A stretch of 44,335 bases of DNA from Basidiobolus ranarum. Taxonomy: Eukaryota. The position numbers and the translations under genes were made by a program. Shown piece after piece: positions 23,788 to 30,175 of this stretch; positions within the stretch are counted from its first letter, which is position 1; each line of letters opens with the position of its first letter. The notes below the pieces were generated by a model, which saw nothing but the letters and a program-made list of their open reading frames with translations, had not been told where the DNA came from and searched no databases. The stretch spans positions 1-44,335 of the forward strand of contig JASJQH010006906.1 in NCBI GenBank assembly GCA_040143965.1, given 5' to 3'.

Positions 23788-25144
23788 ATGGTTAGCGACA
23801 GCTTCACTCAACACTTCCAAAACAACACCACACAGTTCAAGCAACTCAGACCTCTTAATAGTGGTGATATTAAGATTCTTTTGCTTGAGAATGTGAACAC
23901 AGCTGCCGTAGAAATGCTTACCAAACAGGGTTACCAGGTATGACATAGAGTATTTCACACAGTCCTTCATTTATTCTAAATATTGATTTCTACACTAGGT
24001 CGAACATCACACCAAAGCTTTGCCCGAGGACGTGTTAATAGAGAAGATTCGCGATGTCAGTGCTATTGGTATCAGAAGCAAGACAAAACTCAGCGCTCGC
24101 GTTCTCAAGGAAGCCAAAGAGCTTCTCCTAATTGGTTGTTTCTGCATTGGTACCAACCAAGTTGACCTTGAGGTTGCCACTAAGCAAGGAATCGCCGTAT
24201 TCAATTCTCCTTTTAGTAATAGTCGCAGTGTTGCCGAGATGGTCATCTCCAACATCATCAGTTTGGCCCGACAATTCGGAGACCGTAACAAAGAAATGCA
24301 CCAAGGTATCTGGAATAAGGTTTCTGCCAATTGCTATGAAATCAGAGGAAAGAAGCTTGGTATTATTGGTTACGGTCACATCGGATCTCAGCTTAGTGTA
24401 TTAGCAGAATCCATGGGTATGCAAGTAATTTTCTATGACGTTCTTCAACTGATGCCCCTTGGTACCGCAAGAACCTGCAGCTCCCTTGAGGAGCTTTTGG
24501 AGAGTGCCGACTTTGTTACCCTTCACGTTCCAGAGACCCCAGAAACCAAGAACATGATTAGCAAACAACAACTAGCTAGAATGCGCAAGGGTTCTTATTT
24601 GATTAATGCTAGTCGTGGAACTGTTGTAGATATTCCTGAATTGGCTGCTGCTTTGAAGTCTGGCCATTTGGCTGGTGCCGCTGTCGACGTATATCCTCAG
24701 GAGCCTCGTGCTAATGGAGATGGTTTTGTCAACGAACTTCAAGGTTGTCCCAATACTATCCTTACCCCTCATATTGGTGGATCTACCGAGGAAGCCCAAT
24801 CCATGATTGGTGTTGAAGTTGCCACTGCTATCATCAAGTACGTGAATTATGGTACCAGTCTTGGTGCAGTTAACTTCCCCCAAGTCGACCTCCGTGCTAT
24901 CCGTGCAAATGAATCCAAGACCATCCGTGTCATCCATACCCATCACAATGTTCCAGGTGTATTGAAGGAGGTCAATAACATTTTGTCTAATCACAATGTG
25001 GAGAAACAAATTTGTGATTCTACTGGGGACATTGCTTATCTTATGGCTGATCTAACGATTAGCGAAGGTGAGGAAGATTTGCACAAGCTTTACGAAAGAG
25101 TTGCTGCTACTCCTGAAACCATTATGACTCGTGTGTTATATTAA
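23788..25144 (+). CDS. SER3: D-3-phosphoglycerate dehydrogenase (one intron, ~23938-23998)
   Basis: KILLLENVN, GIRSKTKL, FCIGTNQVDL, NSPFSNSRSVAE, GIIGYGHIGSQL, INASRG, LTPHIGGSTEEAQ; C-terminal ACT domain (HHNVPGVL). Confidence 0.97.
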
Positions 25145-25370
25145 TCTTCTTTGACCCTTGCCTTTATCTCACATCATGTATAGACATTTAGCCCCCCTTC
25201 ACCATTTAATTCGCATTTGTCTATATGTGTGACATTGCTCACTCCATATAGAACTTTGTGCATGTTAATAAATATCATACACAATTAACCCCTTAGACGA
25301 TTTGACATTGGAAATGGTTTATGATTATTATGATTATTATTATGCATTGATCACCGCCAGGCAAAGCTTA

Positions 25371-26833
25371 TCATTCATGGATCTCCACCAGGTAAAGCTT
25401 CGACAATTCTTCTACCATATTATTCAAGTATGACATGACAGTATGTTCATCTTCGTTGGATAACGTGTTCACTTCGCATGTGGCATGAGTGAATTCCTTT
25501 TCGAATTCTTTCACAATCAAAGTAATAACGATATCCTAAGGCCACATCTGAATAAATATCCATAATTTGATACATTTACTAAGAAAAAAGAAACCTACGT
25601 TGGATTGAAAACGAAATCCAGCCCCTAAAGGAATTCCCTGGGTTGGGTTCAACTTGAATAGCTTTCGCAATGGTGATAAAGGAACATTCACCTTGGTAGA
25701 AGAACCCTCAAGTTCACAGTCGTTAAGAAACTCTTTCTTACACTAAATGAAAACGAAGGTTGGTATGGATGTAAACAGTGGATTTTCTGGAAATACTCAC
25801 CTGATGTACGAGGTACAATCCAAATTCATGGTGGGTACTCAATAATTTCCCAGTACCTGGGCTCGGGAAGTCAACTCTAACCGTAACTATATACTGAATG
25901 TAAAATGGTTGAGTAAGCACTCGAGTTTGAAAAATGCTTCAAGTAAACGTTATACTTGGGAAAATTCGGGTGGTGTCAATAATAATTCAATGCTCACTGC
26001 GGAGAATGGTTCGAGGGTGATCAATTCAGAATCCAGTTTGGATGCCAGACTACTATCGAAGATGGGGGTCATACTATTTGGATGTAATATATGCAGCTAT
26101 GAGAGTAAAGAACATTATACACGCTAAATGTACGTATACTAACCTCTTGGCCATCGAAGAGTTCTGGGATATTAGATAAGAGCTGGATTTAATATGTTCC
26201 AAATCAAAGGGTGTCTATGGAAGGATAGAAATCAGTAATACATCATAACAACCATTTCAAATATGAACTTCGTCTACCTCTTCCGCACCTTCACGAGGTT
26301 TAAATTCGATATGGCAGATAACTTTAGAAACTGGCATCTGGCTATTGTTACTTATCGTAAGAAATAAACGGGGTTTCCCTTCTTCGTCAATAATGACAGT
26401 TTCTTGAAAAAAAATTTAAAATAGGTTTCGAGAAAGCAATAATCGTAAACCCATTACTTGTACGAACACTGATTCGTAAAAAATGTTCCATCACCGAATT
26501 CATAGTTTGTGTCATTTCCAGACTTTGTCGTAAGTTGGTTGCCATAGTCTGTTTAAAAGCAATAAAAGTCAATAACTTGTTGGGTATACCAGGAGGATTA
26601 GTCCTAATTTCATACCGAATATACAGTTCCAAGTGTATTCTGCATTCCTTCGATACTTTGAGCCATTACAGAAGCAACATTATTTCTATTTTATATATAT
26701 AAAGCACTATTAGTATGCTGAGTATCATATAAACAAATCCGCTTTTAGCAGCTAGGTTGTTAGTTACGTACAAAGGGGAATCATTCCTTACTTCGTCCTC
26801 TTTAGCGTTTGTAGTTTTTTTTGAAGTCGACAT
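25371..26833 (-). CDS. Hypothetical multi-exon protein
   Basis: 5' exons splice in frame: MSTSKKTTNAKEDE / LLKADL / NNVASVMAQSIEGMQNTLGTVYS / TMATNL...ISVRT / KTVIIDEEGKPRLFLTISNNSQMPV...; later YIVTVRVDFPSPGTGKLLSTHHEFGLYLVHQ and PLRKLFKLNPTQGIPLG; stop after LVEIHE. Central exon boundaries are uncertain. Confidence 0.65.
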
Positions 26834-27025
26834 GTTAAGTTAACGTCTTCCAAGTTGTTTCAATTGGATATATATTTATTTGAATCTTGGCTGAACTTTT
26901 TTTTCGAAAATTGGGCATTGTTATTACGATTCTAATGTTGACGTCTTCCAGTGATTATACACACAGGAATTAACCAAATCAATGCTAAGATATTTCTAAA
27001 TTCATTTTTTTAAATAAAAAGGGGG

Positions 27026-27164
27026 TCAGAAAGTTTCAGTGTTTGTTCGTAACAAGGTAGGAGCCAAACACCTAGTATCACCGTCTTTCCTCCGAAGAGG
27101 AATGAGTAATCAACTGGAAACATTCATCATGATTGTTGAACTTCTAAATAGAAGGACATTAACA
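27026..27164 (-). ncRNA. SNORD13: Box C/D snoRNA, U13 (SNORD13)/snR45 type, copy 1
   Basis: Reverse complement of copy 2 (137/139 identical). Has the same C box, D box and both 18S antisense elements, and is followed by CCCCCTTTTT. Confidence 0.85.
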
Positions 27165-27189
27165 TCGATTCACACTCCACACACGACGC

Positions 27190-27283
27190 TTATATTGATT
27201 TATGGAATTTATGGGATGTGATTTATGTAGATACCACTGGAAATCCTTTTTCAGAATCCCACATTCAGAATGGAAATATAAAA
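27190..27283. promoter_or_regulatory. Two back-to-back snoRNA promoters (ATCCCA element plus TATA on each strand)
   Basis: + strand: ATCCCA 27256-27261 and TATAAAA 27277-27283. - strand: ATCCCA 27217-27212 and TATAA 27194-27190. Each ATCCCA starts 53 nt from its repeat arm. Confidence 0.6.
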
Positions 27284-27308
27284 GCACAACGCTTTATTAA
27301 GGATTCAG

Positions 27309-27447
27309 TGTTAATGTCCTTCTATTTAGAAGTTCAACAATCATGATGAATGTTTCCAATTGATTACTCATTCCTCTTGGGAGGAAAGACGGTGATACTA
27401 GGTGTTTGGCTCCTACCTTGTTACGAACAAACACTGAAACTTTCTGA
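27309..27447 (+). ncRNA. SNORD13: Box C/D snoRNA, U13 (SNORD13)/snR45 type, copy 2
   Basis: 5' extension TAATG-TCCTTC (27312-27322) and GTTCA (27332-27336) antisense to the conserved 18S 3' end (TGAAC...GAAGGATCATTA). C box ATGATGA 27343-27349. ACCTTGTTACGA (27415-27426) is perfectly antisense to 18S TCGTAACAAGGT and sits in the loop of stem GTGTTTG/CAAACAC. D box CTGA 27444-27447, then a T-run. Confidence 0.87.
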
Positions 27448-27553
27448 TCTTTTTTACTTTAAATTGTACTAAAACCAAAACCTGACTTTAAGCTGATTCG
27501 TTTTTCATATTTATTTACATACAAATCTATGATCAATATATACAGAATTGAAA

Positions 27554-28111
27554 TCAATACATGTGCATATCTCGATGACAAGTTTTACAGAGATATTTCA
27601 TACTCTGAACGTTTCTAGGATTGATGCAGGAAGTGGGTCTGCGAGAACGGAACAGTTTTCGTACCATCGTAGTAAACTTCTGTGAAAATGTAGATTTCAC
27701 TTTCGTATAAACTTCTACACTAGCTTGGCAGTGAGGACAAAAGGCTACAATTGGTGCATGACTGGGCAATGCTACAATCTCGAATTCAGTTGGTCGACGT
27801 TCATGATCCACGACCTCATAAGAAAGTCTACCTTCTTCGTTATTATCTATTACATAGGGTGGAGGTATTTCATTTTCTTCACTTTGAATTGGAGGCGCCG
27901 GTGTCAAATTAGCTAAAGGAGTTTCAATCGAACAGGTCGTCGATTCCTCTATATTCTCAGTGGATCTTGAAGTAGAGTTCGTAGGTGATTGTATGGAAAA
28001 TTCGGAAGGAGTTTCTTCAATATCCTCATAAGAGAAGTAGTTAACGGTGGGTGCAACTTTGTATGGTGTGCTATTGCATATGTAATTTGGATTGCTATTG
28101 TGTGCGTACAT
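27554..28111 (-). CDS. LITAF-like zinc-ribbon protein (intronless)
   Basis: S/T/E/P-rich N-terminus with PPPY motif; C-terminal CPHC ... CKTC knuckles. The hydrophobic segment between the knuckles is weak. Confidence 0.65.
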   Translation of the reverse strand: MYAHNSNPNYICNSTPYKVAPTVNYFSYEDIEETPSEFSIQSPTNSTSRSTENIEESTTCSIETPLANLTPAPPIQSEENEIPPPYVIDNNEEGRLSYEVVDHERRPTEFEIVALPSHAPIVAFCPHCQASVEVYTKVKSTFSQKFTTMVRKLFRSRRPTSCINPRNVQSMKYLCKTCHRDMHMY

Positions 28112-28336: not shown

Positions 28337-30175
28337 CTAGTTAGTTTCACATATCAACTCAATTAGCCTGTCAATCCTAGAAAGTCTGGCTTCAAACTGA
28401 GGCAACATATGATTTCCGAATGCATTGAATGTATCTTGAGTCCATAGACGCTCGCTCATGGCACCCAGCCTACCTTTTAAGCAGTGAATTTCTTTTTCGA
28501 CTTCAGATTCCCACACTACAATACTGGCACCGTGTACTCGAGGTCCTCTTGAGTAGGGTGCTCCAGCTTCCTTAGGCAAAGTGACCCATTTTGTCTTCCT
28601 TCCTCGTTCAGGGATGCCTCCGAATTCACAACTCCCTTGCCACTTGAGAATATCTTTGACGGAGGAGCCATCGGTTCCTACCACGTATAAGGGTGACCAC
28701 GCTCCATTGATGATGCTGTAGCCGTCTCGGATCAAGTGATCTGGTTGGTAATCTTGCATTGACCAGGTCATGATCAAGATATCCTTTGGTGGGAGTGGGG
28801 TCGAATGTGCAGCAAAGGATTCCCAAACGATGGACCTTCTGGTGGGTTGATAGAAACCAAGATCGGCTGGAATGTTGGATCCGGGTAAGGTCGGAGGAGA
28901 GTAACACGAGTGAATGTTAAGATTTCTAACATGGTAATTCATGAAGCCCATGAAATCCCATAGTAATTCCTTATCTGAGGAAATGTGATGTTTTCTATTA
29001 ATAGCTCTCTGAAAATGGGGATCTTCATCAGCATCAGTCACATCAACCTCGTCGAAGCCAATATGTATATATGGAGAGTAGGGGAACAGTTTGGCTACAT
29101 GGCTCAACATGGGCAGAATCACACAGTTTAGCACCGTTTCATTGGCGAAGTTGACTACTGAGCGTATACGATCCTGGCCATCATTACTGTATGTGCCCAA
29201 GAGCTCAGGTGAGGACCGAATGAGGGCTTCAGAGTGGCCAGGAATATCGAACTCTGGCACCAAGATGACTCCACGTGTAAATGCGTACAAATTCAGGTCT
29301 TTCAATTCTTGAATGGTATAGGCTGGCTCACCATGCACGTTATGAATGGCTTTCCCGATTTCTGATAAATCCACCCCATTATAGAATTCCGGACTGGGCG
29401 AAGGGATCATGAAGTTCTCGTTATCGGTCAAATGCAAATGCAAATATCGAAGCTTATACAAACTGCACAGATCGATAATGGATTGTAGATGCTCAATTGA
29501 ATGGTACTCTCGTGCCACATCCAACATCAATCCACGATATTCGTCAGGTGTCGATGGCCAATCTTCAACGATGATATTTGGCCATATAAATTCGTTTGGA
29601 GTGCGCTCCTCCAATAGTTGAACGAGGGTACTGACTGCGTATGCGGCTCCTTCGGGGTTTTGAACATCTATGGTAACTTGCCGTTGTTGAGCATCAATGA
29701 CAACCCTGTACCTACCATCCATAGAAGCATCTCCAAATCTTTGTAGATTAAAACTAACATTTACGATATTGCTTTGGGGATTTCCCCCTCCAAGAAATTC
29801 ATTCGTGACCACTATTCTCTCTTCCCCGGCATTTAATATCCGTTGTAACCATGCTTTCAACACCAAAGCGTTCCCCAAGAGCCAACTAGAGTTACAATTA
29901 ATTTCTACGCTAACCTCTCCTAGTGATATCAGAGCGACGTGGTCATGTTTCGTTTCATTTTTGGGGGTTGGAATCACCTGAAATTGATGCTCTAATGTCA
30001 AGCCCGGTCTTGGTGGAACTACTGGAGGAGCATTTTCACAAGGGTACTGTTGAGGTGTGTCATATCTTGAGCCAGGTGGTGTTTGTGAGTTCCCGGAGTC
30101 TTCTTCACCCAAAACATCCTTAGCCTTGTATAAAGCTTTCTTAAAAAAAGTGCTAGTTTTCTGTAGAAAAGGCAT
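28337..30175 (-). CDS. Glycoside hydrolase family 20 beta-N-acetylhexosaminidase (intronless, no signal peptide evident)
   Basis: GH20b-like domain, then YRGLMLDVAR, LHLHLTD, VPEFDIPGH, catalytic HIGFDEV, VVWESE and AMSERLW. Confidence 0.92.
   Translation of the reverse strand: MPFLQKTSTFFKKALYKAKDVLGEEDSGNSQTPPGSRYDTPQQYPCENAPPVVPPRPGLTLEHQFQVIPTPKNETKHDHVALISLGEVSVEINCNSSWLLGNALVLKAWLQRILNAGEERIVVTNEFLGGGNPQSNIVNVSFNLQRFGDASMDGRYRVVIDAQQRQVTIDVQNPEGAAYAVSTLVQLLEERTPNEFIWPNIIVEDWPSTPDEYRGLMLDVAREYHSIEHLQSIIDLCSLYKLRYLHLHLTDNENFMIPSPSPEFYNGVDLSEIGKAIHNVHGEPAYTIQELKDLNLYAFTRGVILVPEFDIPGHSEALIRSSPELLGTYSNDGQDRIRSVVNFANETVLNCVILPMLSHVAKLFPYSPYIHIGFDEVDVTDADEDPHFQRAINRKHHISSDKELLWDFMGFMNYHVRNLNIHSCYSPPTLPGSNIPADLGFYQPTRRSIVWESFAAHSTPLPPKDILIMTWSMQDYQPDHLIRDGYSIINGAWSPLYVVGTDGSSVKDILKWQGSCEFGGIPERGRKTKWVTLPKEAGAPYSRGPRVHGASIVVWESEVEKEIHCLKGRLGAMSERLWTQDTFNAFGNHMLPQFEARLSRIDRLIELICETN

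What the first reader, a model, noticed from the sequence alone, without database searches (positions are those of the whole stretch)
27026..27447. Apparent MITE-like palindrome is a head-to-head pair of U13/snR45 rRNA-acetylation guide snoRNAs
Seen: two 139-bp arms, 137/139 identical. Read outward from the centre, each has a 5' extension antisense to the 18S 3' end, a C box (ATGATGA), a 12-nt ACCTTGTTACGA guide in a stem-loop, a terminal D box (CTGA) and a T-run. Known: this layout defines U13/snR45, which directs NAT10/Kre33 to form ac4C in helix 45 of 18S rRNA; the family diverges fast and is often unannotated. Identity stops at the predicted RNA ends while spacer and flanks differ, which points to selection or gene conversion on the RNA rather than a fresh duplication. 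A divergent twin arrangement is unusual, and read-through would make a long dsRNA hairpin.
Basis: partly seen in the sequence, partly recalled or inferred. Interest (0 to 1): 0.78.

Follow-up and report, generated by a model that had tools for sequence, protein, structure and literature searches.

The report
Twin snoRNA genes for rRNA acetylation
Two almost identical small-RNA genes pointing away from each other in a Basidiobolus-like fungus look like the known guide RNA (U13/snR45) that directs acetylation of one cytidine near the 3' end of 18S ribosomal RNA; I found no report of this family from this branch of fungi.

Summary
The inverted repeat is real. A 141-nt core (27024-27164 on the minus strand, 27309-27449 on the plus strand) differs at 3 positions. 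The 144-nt spacer and the outer flanks are no more alike than shuffled sequence.

Read outward, each arm has:
- a 5' stretch antisense to the 18S 3' tail and to the 3' strand of helix 45;
- a C box (AUGAUGA);
- a hairpin;
- an 8-bp stem enclosing ACCUUGUUACGA, which is antisense to the 12 nt just 5' of helix 45;
- a terminal D box, followed by a T-run.

Rfam's U13 model aligns full-length to both arms and is the best snoRNA hit. It scores only 20.1 and 19.3 bits against a gathering score of 46.

By eye, the 3' half shares five ordered blocks with published budding-yeast snR45 sequences. Three metagenomic U13-like RNAs show the same layout.

Weak points: fold energy is not better than shuffles, no expression data were available, no genome was available for a copy count, and the organism's own 18S was not seen.

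This is a new member of a known family, in a zygomycete-grade fungus, arranged as a divergent gene pair probably homogenised by gene conversion. Interest is moderate.

The parts
27309..27449 (+). Right copy: predicted ~141-nt U13/snR45-like box C/D RNA. The ends are inferred from where identity between the copies starts and stops.
   Evidence: Rfam snoU13 27316-27449, 19.3 bits, model positions 1-104
27024..27164 (-). Left copy: the same RNA, with 3 differences (RNA positions 51, 71, 140)
   Evidence: Rfam snoU13 27024-27157, 20.1 bits, model positions 1-104
27165..27308 (.). 144-nt unique spacer between the two 5' ends; presumed shared divergent promoter region
   Evidence: its two halves are not significantly alike (72 of 500 shuffles as good)
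27277..27284 (+). TATA-like TATAAAAG. Its first T lies 32 nt upstream of the start of identity of the right copy.
   Evidence: read; weak evidence in 65% A+T DNA
27189..27194 (-). TATA-like TATAAG. Its first T lies 30 nt upstream of the start of identity of the left copy.
   Evidence: read
27312..27323 (+). 5' antisense element UAAUGUCCUUCU (18S-A plus an extension). It pairs with GGAAGGA(U)CAUUA of the 18S 3' tail, leaving one rRNA U bulged.
   Evidence: duplex with a stand-in 18S 3' end (L037); 18S tail consensus
27332..27336 (+). GUUCA (18S-B), antisense to UGAAC in the loop and 3' strand of helix 45
27343..27349 (+). Box C, AUGAUGA
27352..27356 (+). GUUUC, 5' strand of the internal stem next to the C/D kink-turn; pairs with GAAAC at 27436-27440
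   Evidence: 37 of 500 shuffles as good for the right copy, 16 of 500 for the left; MFE
27363..27396 (+). Internal hairpin, closed by a UUGG loop in the right copy and UUCG in the left. The difference at RNA position 71 lies in this loop.
27401..27408 (+). GGUGUUUG, 5' strand of the 8-bp stem enclosing the guide (stem II); pairs with CAAACACU at 27428-27435
   Evidence: 8 of 500 shuffles as good for the right copy, 2 of 500 for the left
27415..27426 (+). Internal guide ACCUUGUUACGA (18S-C), antisense to UCGUAACAAGGU, which ends one nucleotide 5' of the ITS1-primer site
27444..27447 (+). Box D, CUGA
27450..27455 (+). T6 run two nucleotides after box D
27124..27130 (-). Box C of the left copy
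27047..27058 (-). Guide ACCUUGUUACGA of the left copy
27026..27029 (-). Box D of the left copy
27016..27020 (-). T5 run after CCCCC, downstream of the left copy

Best explanation
The two arms are two independent, divergently oriented genes for one small nucleolar RNA of about 140 nt. The RNA belongs to the U13 (SNORD13) / snR45 family of atypical box C/D snoRNAs. The host is a fungus of the genus Basidiobolus or close to it.

Inferred mechanism:
1. Each copy is transcribed outward from the 144-nt spacer, where a TATA-like box lies about 30 nt upstream of each copy.
2. Boxes C and D, with the adjacent GUUUC/GAAAC stem, form the kink-turn that binds the core box C/D proteins.
3. The 5' end (UAAUG-UCCUUCU ... 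GUUCA) pairs with the 3' tail of 18S and the 3' strand of helix 45.
4. The loop-borne ACCUUGUUACGA pairs with the 12 nt that end one nucleotide 5' of the primer site, which begins UCCG.
5. The 5' strand of helix 45, with its CCG, is thereby left single-stranded for the acetyltransferase Kre33/NAT10, which makes ac4C.

Shown here: the sequence anatomy, the complementarity, and the likeness to U13 and snR45. Inferred: transcription, RNP assembly and acetylation.

The near-identity of the copies against unrelated flanks is best explained by gene conversion between the inverted copies, on top of selection on the RNA.
For: - Anatomy.
- Rfam: snoU13 aligns over model positions 1-104 on both arms (20.1 and 19.3 bits; E 0.08 and 0.13 for 701 nt against 4227 families; E 0.028 when only 156 nt are searched). 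It is the top snoRNA hit, and its identities fall on UCCUU, GUUCA, UGAUGA, ACCUUGUUACGA and UCUGA.
- 18S target: among 52 eukaryote-type rDNA fragments fetched with the ITS1 primer, 48 carry TCGTAACAAGGT one base before the primer site, and 42 carry AAGGATCATT directly after it.
- Duplex with one of these fragments (L037): the guide gives 12 perfect pairs at -19.0 kcal/mol, matched by 7 of 12510 40-mers of the window. The 5' end gives 20 pairs over 22 rRNA nucleotides at -17.1 kcal/mol, matched by 99 of 12514 34-mers.
- Stem enclosing the guide: matched by 8 of 500 shuffles (right copy) and 2 of 500 (left copy). The same stem, with a different sequence, is seen in three metagenomic U13-like RNAs (1, 3 and 24 of 500). 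PMC9670809 describes a stem II flanking the 18S-C element.
- Metagenomic relatives: L001, L002 and L006 also carry ATCCTTCC, a hairpin and AGGTTC upstream of box C. None of these was part of the search pattern. They hit the plant U13 family RF00304, which is in the same clan as snoU13.
- Yeast snR45: in Supplementary Data 1 of PMC9226516 the C. lusitaniae sequence shares, in the same order, GGTGA, GTGTTTGGC, CTTGTTAC, CAAACACTGAAA and TTTCTGATC with this RNA. The yeasts' invariant 5' end ATGACCTTCC resembles TAATGTCCTTC here (compared by eye).
- All three differences between the copies lie in predicted unpaired positions, outside the boxes, guides and stems.
- Flanks and spacer are not alike.
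Against: - The Rfam score is less than half the gathering score, and the gathering-level scan of the window found nothing. No family other than snoU13 and the hairpin artefact MIR8007 matched the whole element at E<=10.
- Folding energy is no better than for shuffled sequence (z -0.26 and -0.09; 70 and 88 of 200 shuffles fold as well). The antisense strand scores slightly better, z -1.33.
- The 5' complementarity alone is not rare (99 of 12514).
- TATA-like words are common in 65% A+T DNA.
- The 18S sequence used is a stand-in, not the organism's own.
- The comparison with yeast snR45 was by eye, not by a scored alignment.
- I had no expression data, no genome-wide copy count and no orthologues from other Basidiobolus genomes. 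I could not find the pseudoknot proposed for yeast snR45.
Confidence: 0.75

Rival explanations
1. A non-functional inverted duplication or a MITE/foldback-type mobile element whose arms resemble a snoRNA by chance, or which derives from a dead snoRNA copy.
For: Long terminal inverted repeats with a short spacer. The whole region folds as a long hairpin, hence the MIR8007 artefact at 40.3 bits. The DNA is A+T-rich. Copy number in the genome could not be checked.
Against: The sequences abutting the arms (…AAGGGGG and TCTTTTT…) form no target-site duplication. There is no other copy in 44 kb. Identity ends within 2 nt of box D and about 30 nt downstream of a TATA-like box on both sides. Five separate family features occur in the right order.
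Confidence: 0.05
2. A genuine U13/snR45-type snoRNA whose main role is chaperoning or processing of the 18S 3' end (helix 45, 3' tail, ITS1 junction) rather than guiding acetylation.
For: The 5' complementarity extends to the very last nucleotides of 18S (CAUUA). Some box C/D snoRNAs (U3, U14, U8) act in processing rather than modification (passage of PMC5464676). Loss of the acetylation guide has no growth phenotype in yeast, human cells or zebrafish (abstract and passages of PMC9226516), so selection for acetylation alone seems weak.
Against: In every organism tested (yeast, human, zebrafish, fly), removing the homologue abolishes helix 45 ac4C and leaves processing intact (PMC5464676 and PMC9226516 passages). 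The bipartite layout that leaves the CCG strand unpaired is the acetylation layout.
Confidence: 0.1
3. A recent duplication of only the transcribed segment (for example by retroposition or template switching) in which one copy is a silent pseudogene. On this reading the near-identity reflects youth, not gene conversion or selection.
For: Identity starts and stops almost exactly at the predicted RNA ends, as expected for a copy made from the RNA. There are only 3 differences.
Against: There is no A-tail and there are no flanking direct repeats at either copy. Each copy has its own TATA-like box at the same distance, and a similar T-run followed by TTTAAA downstream. A short stretch beyond box D is shared.
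Confidence: 0.08
4. A canonical box C/D guide for ribose 2'-O-methylation of 18S.
For: C and D boxes and a 12-nt perfect antisense element.
Against: The antisense element ends 7 nt before the internal CUGA and 17 nt before the terminal box D. The rule that the target pairs with the fifth nucleotide upstream of D/D' (passage of PMC5464676) therefore cannot apply.
Confidence: 0.02

Closest known systems
snR45 of budding yeasts (Saccharomycotina): guide for Kre33-dependent ac4C1773 in helix 45 of 18S (PMC5464676; sequences in Supplementary Data 1 of PMC9226516)
   Same: It is an independent gene. The order of elements is the same: 5'-terminal antisense element ahead of box C, a GGUGA/GGAGA motif, a helix, a loop carrying CUUGUUAC, and box D. 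By eye, five blocks are identical and in the same order as in the C. lusitaniae sequence: GGTGA, GTGTTTGGC, CTTGTTAC, CAAACACTGAAA, TTTCTGATC. The 5' end is of the same type (ATGACCTTCC against TAATGTCCTTC), and in each one rRNA base is left unpaired.
   Different: This RNA is shorter: 141 nt, against the ~161-279 nt I counted by eye in the listed yeast sequences. Its internal guide is 12 nt (ACCUUGUUACGA), as in animals, against 8-9 nt in most yeasts. It has a separate GUUCA element after a small hairpin. I could not find the pseudoknot proposed for snR45. There are two copies. No scored alignment was made.
Vertebrate U13 / SNORD13 (Rfam RF01210)
   Same: The model aligns end to end. The order 18S-A (UCCUU), 18S-B (GUUCA), box C, hairpin, stem II enclosing ACCUUGUUACGA and box D is the same. 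The spacing from guide to box D is nearly the same: one gap in the Rfam alignment (PMC9670809).
   Different: It scores 20.1 and 19.3 bits against a gathering score of 46. It is about 37 nt longer, through insertions after box C and in the hairpin. About 8 extra 5' nucleotides extend the pairing to the last bases of 18S.
Plant snoR105/snoR108/snoR146 (Rfam RF00304) and the metagenomic RNAs on L001, L002, L006
   Same: The layout is the same: antisense element, hairpin, second antisense element, box C, internal stem, hairpin, stem enclosing the guide, box D. The 12-mer ACCTTGTTACGA is identical, but it was required by the search.
   Different: In L001 and L006 a GGGG/CCCC terminal stem flanks boxes C and D; L002 has no such stem, and neither does this RNA. 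All three use AGGTTC rather than GTTCA, and all three are followed by a tRNA-Sec gene. The window has no tRNA.
MITEs / foldback elements
   Same: Long inverted arms, a short spacer, A+T-rich DNA.
   Different: No target-site duplication and no further copy in 44 kb. The arms carry an ordered set of snoRNA features, and identity ends at the predicted RNA ends.

Membership tests
U13/SNORD13-snR45 family of acetylation-guide box C/D snoRNAs | Box C (RUGAUGA) and box D (CUGA), with box D at the 3' end | tested here: met
   AUGAUGA at RNA positions 35-41 and CUGA at 136-139 in both copies
U13/SNORD13-snR45 family of acetylation-guide box C/D snoRNAs | 5'-terminal antisense element(s), ahead of box C, complementary to 18S 3' of the target cytidine (18S-A and 18S-B of PMC9670809) | tested here: met
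   UAAUG-UCCUUCU, UAG and GUUCA give 20 pairs over 22 nt of a stand-in 18S tail, -17.1 kcal/mol. The tail consensus AAGGATCATT is present in 42 of 52 rDNA fragments. Caveats: the organism's own 18S was not available, and 99 of 12514 window 34-mers bind as well.
U13/SNORD13-snR45 family of acetylation-guide box C/D snoRNAs | Internal antisense element complementary to 18S just 5' of helix 45 (18S-C), not adjacent to a D/D' box | tested here: met
   ACCUUGUUACGA is a perfect 12-nt antisense to TCGTAACAAGGT, which is present one base before the primer site in 48 of 52 rDNA fragments. Duplex -19.0 kcal/mol, matched by 7 of 12510 window 40-mers. The element ends 7 and 17 nt before the two CUGA motifs.
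U13/SNORD13-snR45 family of acetylation-guide box C/D snoRNAs | Conserved stem flanking the internal guide (stem II), plus an internal hairpin (stem I) | tested here: met
   An 8-bp stem GGUGUUUG/CAAACACU, matched by 8 of 500 and 2 of 500 shuffles. An equivalent stem of different sequence occurs in L001, L006 and L002. A hairpin spans positions 55-88 in the MFE and centroid folds. Overall fold energy is not significant (z -0.26, -0.09).
U13/SNORD13-snR45 family of acetylation-guide box C/D snoRNAs | A stable nucleolar RNA bound to core box C/D proteins and to Kre33/NAT10, and required for ac4C in helix 45 | not testable with these tools
U13/SNORD13-snR45 family of acetylation-guide box C/D snoRNAs | Target 5'-CCG-3' in helix 45 of the organism's own 18S | not testable with these tools
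   There is no rDNA in the window. The motif lies within the ITS1-primer site used to fetch the stand-ins.
Rfam RF01210 snoU13 (curated model) | Score at or above the gathering score of 46 bits | tested here: not met
   20.1 and 19.3 bits, although model positions 1-104 are covered in full. I therefore do not file it under this Rfam family as curated, but under the wider U13/snR45 kind.
Yeast snR45 (as described in PMC5464676) | Pseudoknot between the guide loop and nucleotides downstream of box C | tested here: inconclusive
   I saw no convincing complement to the loop GCUCCU downstream of box C (inspection). No formal pseudoknot search was run.
MITE / foldback transposon | Target-site duplication abutting the terminal inverted repeats | tested here: not met
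   The abutting sequences differ (…AAGGGGG | arms | TCTTTTT…).
MITE / foldback transposon | Many dispersed copies | tested here: inconclusive
   There is no further copy in the 44 kb window. The genome is not available.
Canonical 2'-O-methylation guide box C/D snoRNA | Antisense element directly upstream of box D or D', so that the target pairs with the fifth nucleotide upstream | tested here: not met
   There are gaps of 7 nt and 17 nt between the antisense element and the two CUGA motifs.

The most novel reading that the evidence does not exclude
This Basidiobolus RNA is a sequence intermediate that ties yeast snR45 to animal and plant U13. Its 3' half is snR45-like, while its 12-nt guide and GUUCA element are U13-like. 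That would favour one ancient origin of RNA-guided 18S acetylation over convergence, a question left open in PMC9226516. In addition, the gene would exist as a divergent pair kept identical by gene conversion. With a TATA-like box at about -30, no internal T4 run and a T5/T6 run right after box D, the pair might be transcribed by RNA polymerase III rather than II.
Probability: 0.35. Interest if true: 0.55.

Novelty: new member of a known kind. Interest (0 to 1): 0.4.

Why it matters
In the literature I could see, fungal members of this family are reported only from budding yeasts. The fungal snoRNAome survey found snR45 'exclusively in Saccharomycetaceae' (PMC5824354, passage). The fungal list in Supplementary Data 1 of PMC9226516 is headed 'Fungi (budding yeasts)'.

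PMC9226516 leaves open whether snR45 and U13 share an ancestor or arose by convergence (passage). A member from an early-branching fungus that resembles both would speak for common descent. It would also give a better seed for finding the RNA in other fungi.

The twin arrangement is a small curiosity about how a non-essential guide RNA is kept in two identical copies.

None of this changes what is known about the mechanism.

Tried and rejected
1. Whole-genome copy count: no genome is held for this window.
3. Rfam at gathering level on the whole window: 0 hits. A permissive scan of 25100-27030 also found nothing.
4. Thermodynamic support: fold z-scores of -0.26 and -0.09 give none.
5. Metagenome pattern scan: 11 loci.
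   - Three (L001, L002, L006) are U13-like, but of the plant/alga type, not close relatives.
   - The other eight looked like chance matches in coding DNA. I judged this by eye. Only 3 of the 11 loci were given to Rfam.
6. Fetching real yeast snR45 genes as tool-held loci, using the yeast 5' motif, in genome contigs: 1 hit, L064. It is an unrelated stretch with no Rfam match.
7. Two scans of viral contigs: 7 chance hits lacking box C and the stem, and 0 hits.
8. A scored alignment or covariance model with the yeast snR45 sequences printed in the supplement was left out, because those letters are not held as loci. That comparison is by eye only.
9. A covariance model built from L001, L002 and L006 was not made. 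Those loci were selected with motifs taken from this element, so a hit back on the window would be partly circular.
10. The search of earlier findings: nothing by place, sequence or words.
11. Pfam on the small ORFs between 25.8 and 26.7 kb: nothing. I therefore found no sign that the pair sits in an intron of a recognisable gene.

Full report
**1. The observation**

The inverted repeat is real.
- The repeat finder gives arms 27026-27171 and 27302-27447: 146 nt, 97% complementary, 130 nt apart.
- Aligning the right arm with the reverse complement of the left shows a 141-nt core (27309-27449 plus strand; 27024-27164 minus strand). It has three differences, at RNA positions 51 (A/G), 71 (G/C) and 140 (U/C).
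- Outside the core the similarity collapses. The 72 nt upstream of each copy (the two halves of the spacer) and the 80 nt downstream align no better than shuffles: 72 of 500 and 101 of 500 shuffles score at least as well.
- A short T-run followed by TTTAAA is shared just after each copy.
- blastn finds no other copy in the 44 kb.

**2. The organism and the neighbourhood**

- No genome is held for the window.
- The neighbouring 612-aa GH20 hexosaminidase (28337-30175, minus strand) is 76% identical to a protein of Basidiobolus meristosporus and 64% identical to one of B. ranarum. The window therefore comes from a Basidiobolus-like fungus.
- The pair lies in a gene-poor stretch. On one side is a 2-hydroxyacid/phosphoglycerate-dehydrogenase-like ORF ending at 25144. 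On the other is a 185-aa ORF (27554-28111, minus strand) with only faint zinc-ribbon/LITAF-like matches.
- There is no tRNA and no Rfam family at gathering level in the window.

**3. Anatomy of each arm, read outward (RNA numbering 1-141)**

| RNA positions | Feature |
|---|---|
| 4-15 | UAAUGUCCUUCU |
| 11-24 | small hairpin CUUCU/AGAAG |
| 24-28 | GUUCA |
| 35-41 | box C, AUGAUGA |
| 44-48 with 128-132 | GUUUC pairing with GAAAC |
| 55-88 | irregular hairpin, closed by UUGG (right copy) or UUCG (left copy) |
| 93-100 with 120-127 | 8-bp stem GGUGUUUG/CAAACACU |
| 107-118 | ACCUUGUUACGA, in the loop of that stem |
| 136-139 | box D, CUGA |

- T6 (right copy) or CCCCC then T5 (left copy) follows within a few nucleotides of box D.
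- No run of four or more T lies inside the RNA.
- TATA-like boxes sit with their first T 32 nt (TATAAAAG, 27277-27284, plus strand) and 30 nt (TATAAG, 27189-27194, minus strand) upstream of the start of identity. This is only weak evidence in DNA that is 65% A+T.
- All three differences between the copies fall in predicted unpaired positions: a linker, the hairpin loop, and the base after box D.

**4. Complementarity to 18S**

The window has no rDNA.
- 48 of 52 carry TCGTAACAAGGT one base before the primer site; 44 of these read GTCGTAACAAGGTT.
- 42 of 52 carry AAGGATCATT directly after the primer site; 27 read AAGGATCATTA.

Using one fragment (L037) as a stand-in:
- The internal element forms 12 perfect pairs with UCGUAACAAGGU at -19.0 kcal/mol. 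Only 7 of 12510 40-mers of the window bind that target as well.
- The 5' end pairs GUUCA:UGAAC, UAG:CUG, UCCUUCU:GGAAGGA and UAAUG:CAUUA, with one rRNA C left unpaired and one U bulged. That is 20 pairs over 22 nt at -17.1 kcal/mol.
- The 5' pairing is less exceptional on its own: 99 of 12514 34-mers bind as well.

Together the two elements would hold both flanks of the 5' strand of helix 45 and leave its UCCG unpaired. This is the published model for this family (PMC5464676 and PMC9226516, passages).

The guide ends 7 nt before the internal CUGA and 17 nt before box D. The box D+5 rule for methylation guides therefore cannot apply.

**5. Comparison with known families**

*Rfam.* A permissive scan of all 4227 families over 26900-27600 returns snoU13 (RF01210) on both arms.
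- The alignment covers model positions 1-104, at 20.1 and 19.3 bits (E 0.08 and 0.13). E is 0.028 when only 156 nt are searched.
- The identities fall on UCCUU, GUUCA, UGAUGA, ACCUUGUUACGA and UCUGA.
- The score is far below the gathering score of 46.
- The higher-scoring MIR8007 match (40.3 bits against a gathering score of 195) only reflects the long hairpin formed by the two arms.

*Published architecture.* PMC9670809 (section 5 and passages) defines 18S-A and 18S-B at the 5' end and 18S-C internally. It describes a stem II flanking 18S-C, and places 18S-A at nt 1-6 of human SNORD13. The present RNA has all of these in the same order.

*Metagenome scan.* I scanned for TGATGA..ACCTTGTTACGA..TCTGA and got 11 loci.
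- Three (L001, L002, L006) are U13-like. They hit the plant U13 family RF00304, which is in the same clan, at 40.7, 25.3 and 31.2 bits, below its gathering score of 54.
- Upstream of box C they carry ATCCTTCC, a hairpin and AGGTTC, none of which the pattern required.
- Each has a stem of different sequence around the guide, matched by 1, 24 and 3 of 500 shuffles for L001, L002 and L006.
- The other eight looked like chance matches, judged by eye.

*Yeast snR45.* Supplementary Data 1 of PMC9226516 prints snR45 of about thirty budding yeasts (I read part 5 and ran one term search of the archive).
- By eye, the C. lusitaniae sequence shares GGTGA, GTGTTTGGC, CTTGTTAC, CAAACACTGAAA and TTTCTGATC with this RNA, in the same order.
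- The yeasts' almost invariant 5' end ATGACCTTCC corresponds to TAATGTCCTTC here.
- I could not make a scored alignment, because these sequences are not held as loci. An attempt to fetch yeast copies from genome contigs gave only one chance hit.

**6. What speaks against the interpretation**

- Folding energy is ordinary (z -0.26 and -0.09). This is usual for box C/D RNAs, but it gives no support.
- The Rfam threshold is not met.
- The organism's own 18S, expression, copy number and orthologues could not be examined.
- I did not find the pseudoknot proposed for snR45.

**7. Mechanism and rivals**

Most likely (about 0.75), these are two active genes for a U13/snR45-type RNA that guides Kre33/NAT10 to the CCG of helix 45.

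The contrast between 98% identity over the RNA and unrelated flanks suggests gene conversion between the inverted copies, because interspecies comparisons show that much of this RNA is free to vary. A recent copy of the transcribed segment alone is the alternative.

The polymerase is open. A TATA-like box at about -30, no internal T4 run and a T-run right after box D would fit Pol III as well as Pol II.

The genes are head to head, so read-through leaves the twin behind. Only a transcript crossing both arms from outside would fold into a long hairpin.

The MITE reading is unlikely: there is no target-site duplication, no other copy in 44 kb, and identity ends at the RNA ends.

**8. Novelty**

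The family and its mechanism are known.

In what I could search, fungal members are reported only from budding yeasts:
- PMC5824354 (passage): 'exclusively found in Saccharomycetaceae'.
- The PMC9226516 supplement heading: 'Fungi (budding yeasts)'. It has no occurrence of Basidiobolus, Mucor, Rhizopus or Neurospora.
- A search for Basidiobolus plus snoRNA gave one unrelated paper, seen as a listing only.
- A search for snR45, pombe and homolog gave 12 papers, seen as listings only; none was about other fungi.

This is therefore a new member of a known kind. Its modest added value is as a possible link between snR45 and U13, together with an unusual divergent twin arrangement.

Noticed in passing
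L001:379-611, L002:74-598, L006:326-627 (all on the minus strand of the locus): In three unrelated metagenome contigs a U13-like box C/D RNA is followed on the same strand by a tRNA-Sec gene, 31, 337 and 66 nt downstream. The snoRNA hits are to RF00304 at 40.7, 25.3 and 31.2 bits, below gathering. The tRNA-Sec hits are at 72, 67 and 61 bits, above the gathering score of 47. PMC9226516 (Figure 4C legend) says no obvious SNORD13 was found in algae. From recall, selenocysteine is used by green algae and not by land plants, so these may be the missing algal or protist counterparts, linked to tRNA-Sec.
   Followed up: partly
window 28337-30175 (-): A GH20 beta-N-acetylhexosaminidase. After three Basidiobolus proteins (76, 64 and 59% identity), the next matches drop to 34% or less. 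They come mostly from metagenomes and bacteria and carry bacterial-type accessory domains. A bacterial origin of this gene family in Basidiobolus is possible.
   Followed up: no
window 25145-27020: About 1.9 kb with no stop-free frame longer than 101 aa. The three stop-free frames of 92-101 aa between 25846 and 26702 have no Pfam match at E<=1, and there is no Rfam match at E<=1. That is a long stretch without recognisable content beside the snoRNA pair.
   Followed up: partly
L012-L063: An exact ITS1-primer match is present in at least 52 contigs of assemblies labelled as bacteria or archaea. Most have eukaryote-type 18S 3' ends and ITS1 starts, which indicates eukaryotic rDNA contamination of those assemblies.
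   Followed up: no
window 27554-28111 (-): A 185-aa ORF ending about 100 nt from the right snoRNA copy and convergent with it. It has a C-terminal CxxC...CxxC region and only faint zinc-ribbon/LITAF-like Pfam matches (E 0.007 to 0.7, below cut-offs).
   Followed up: partly
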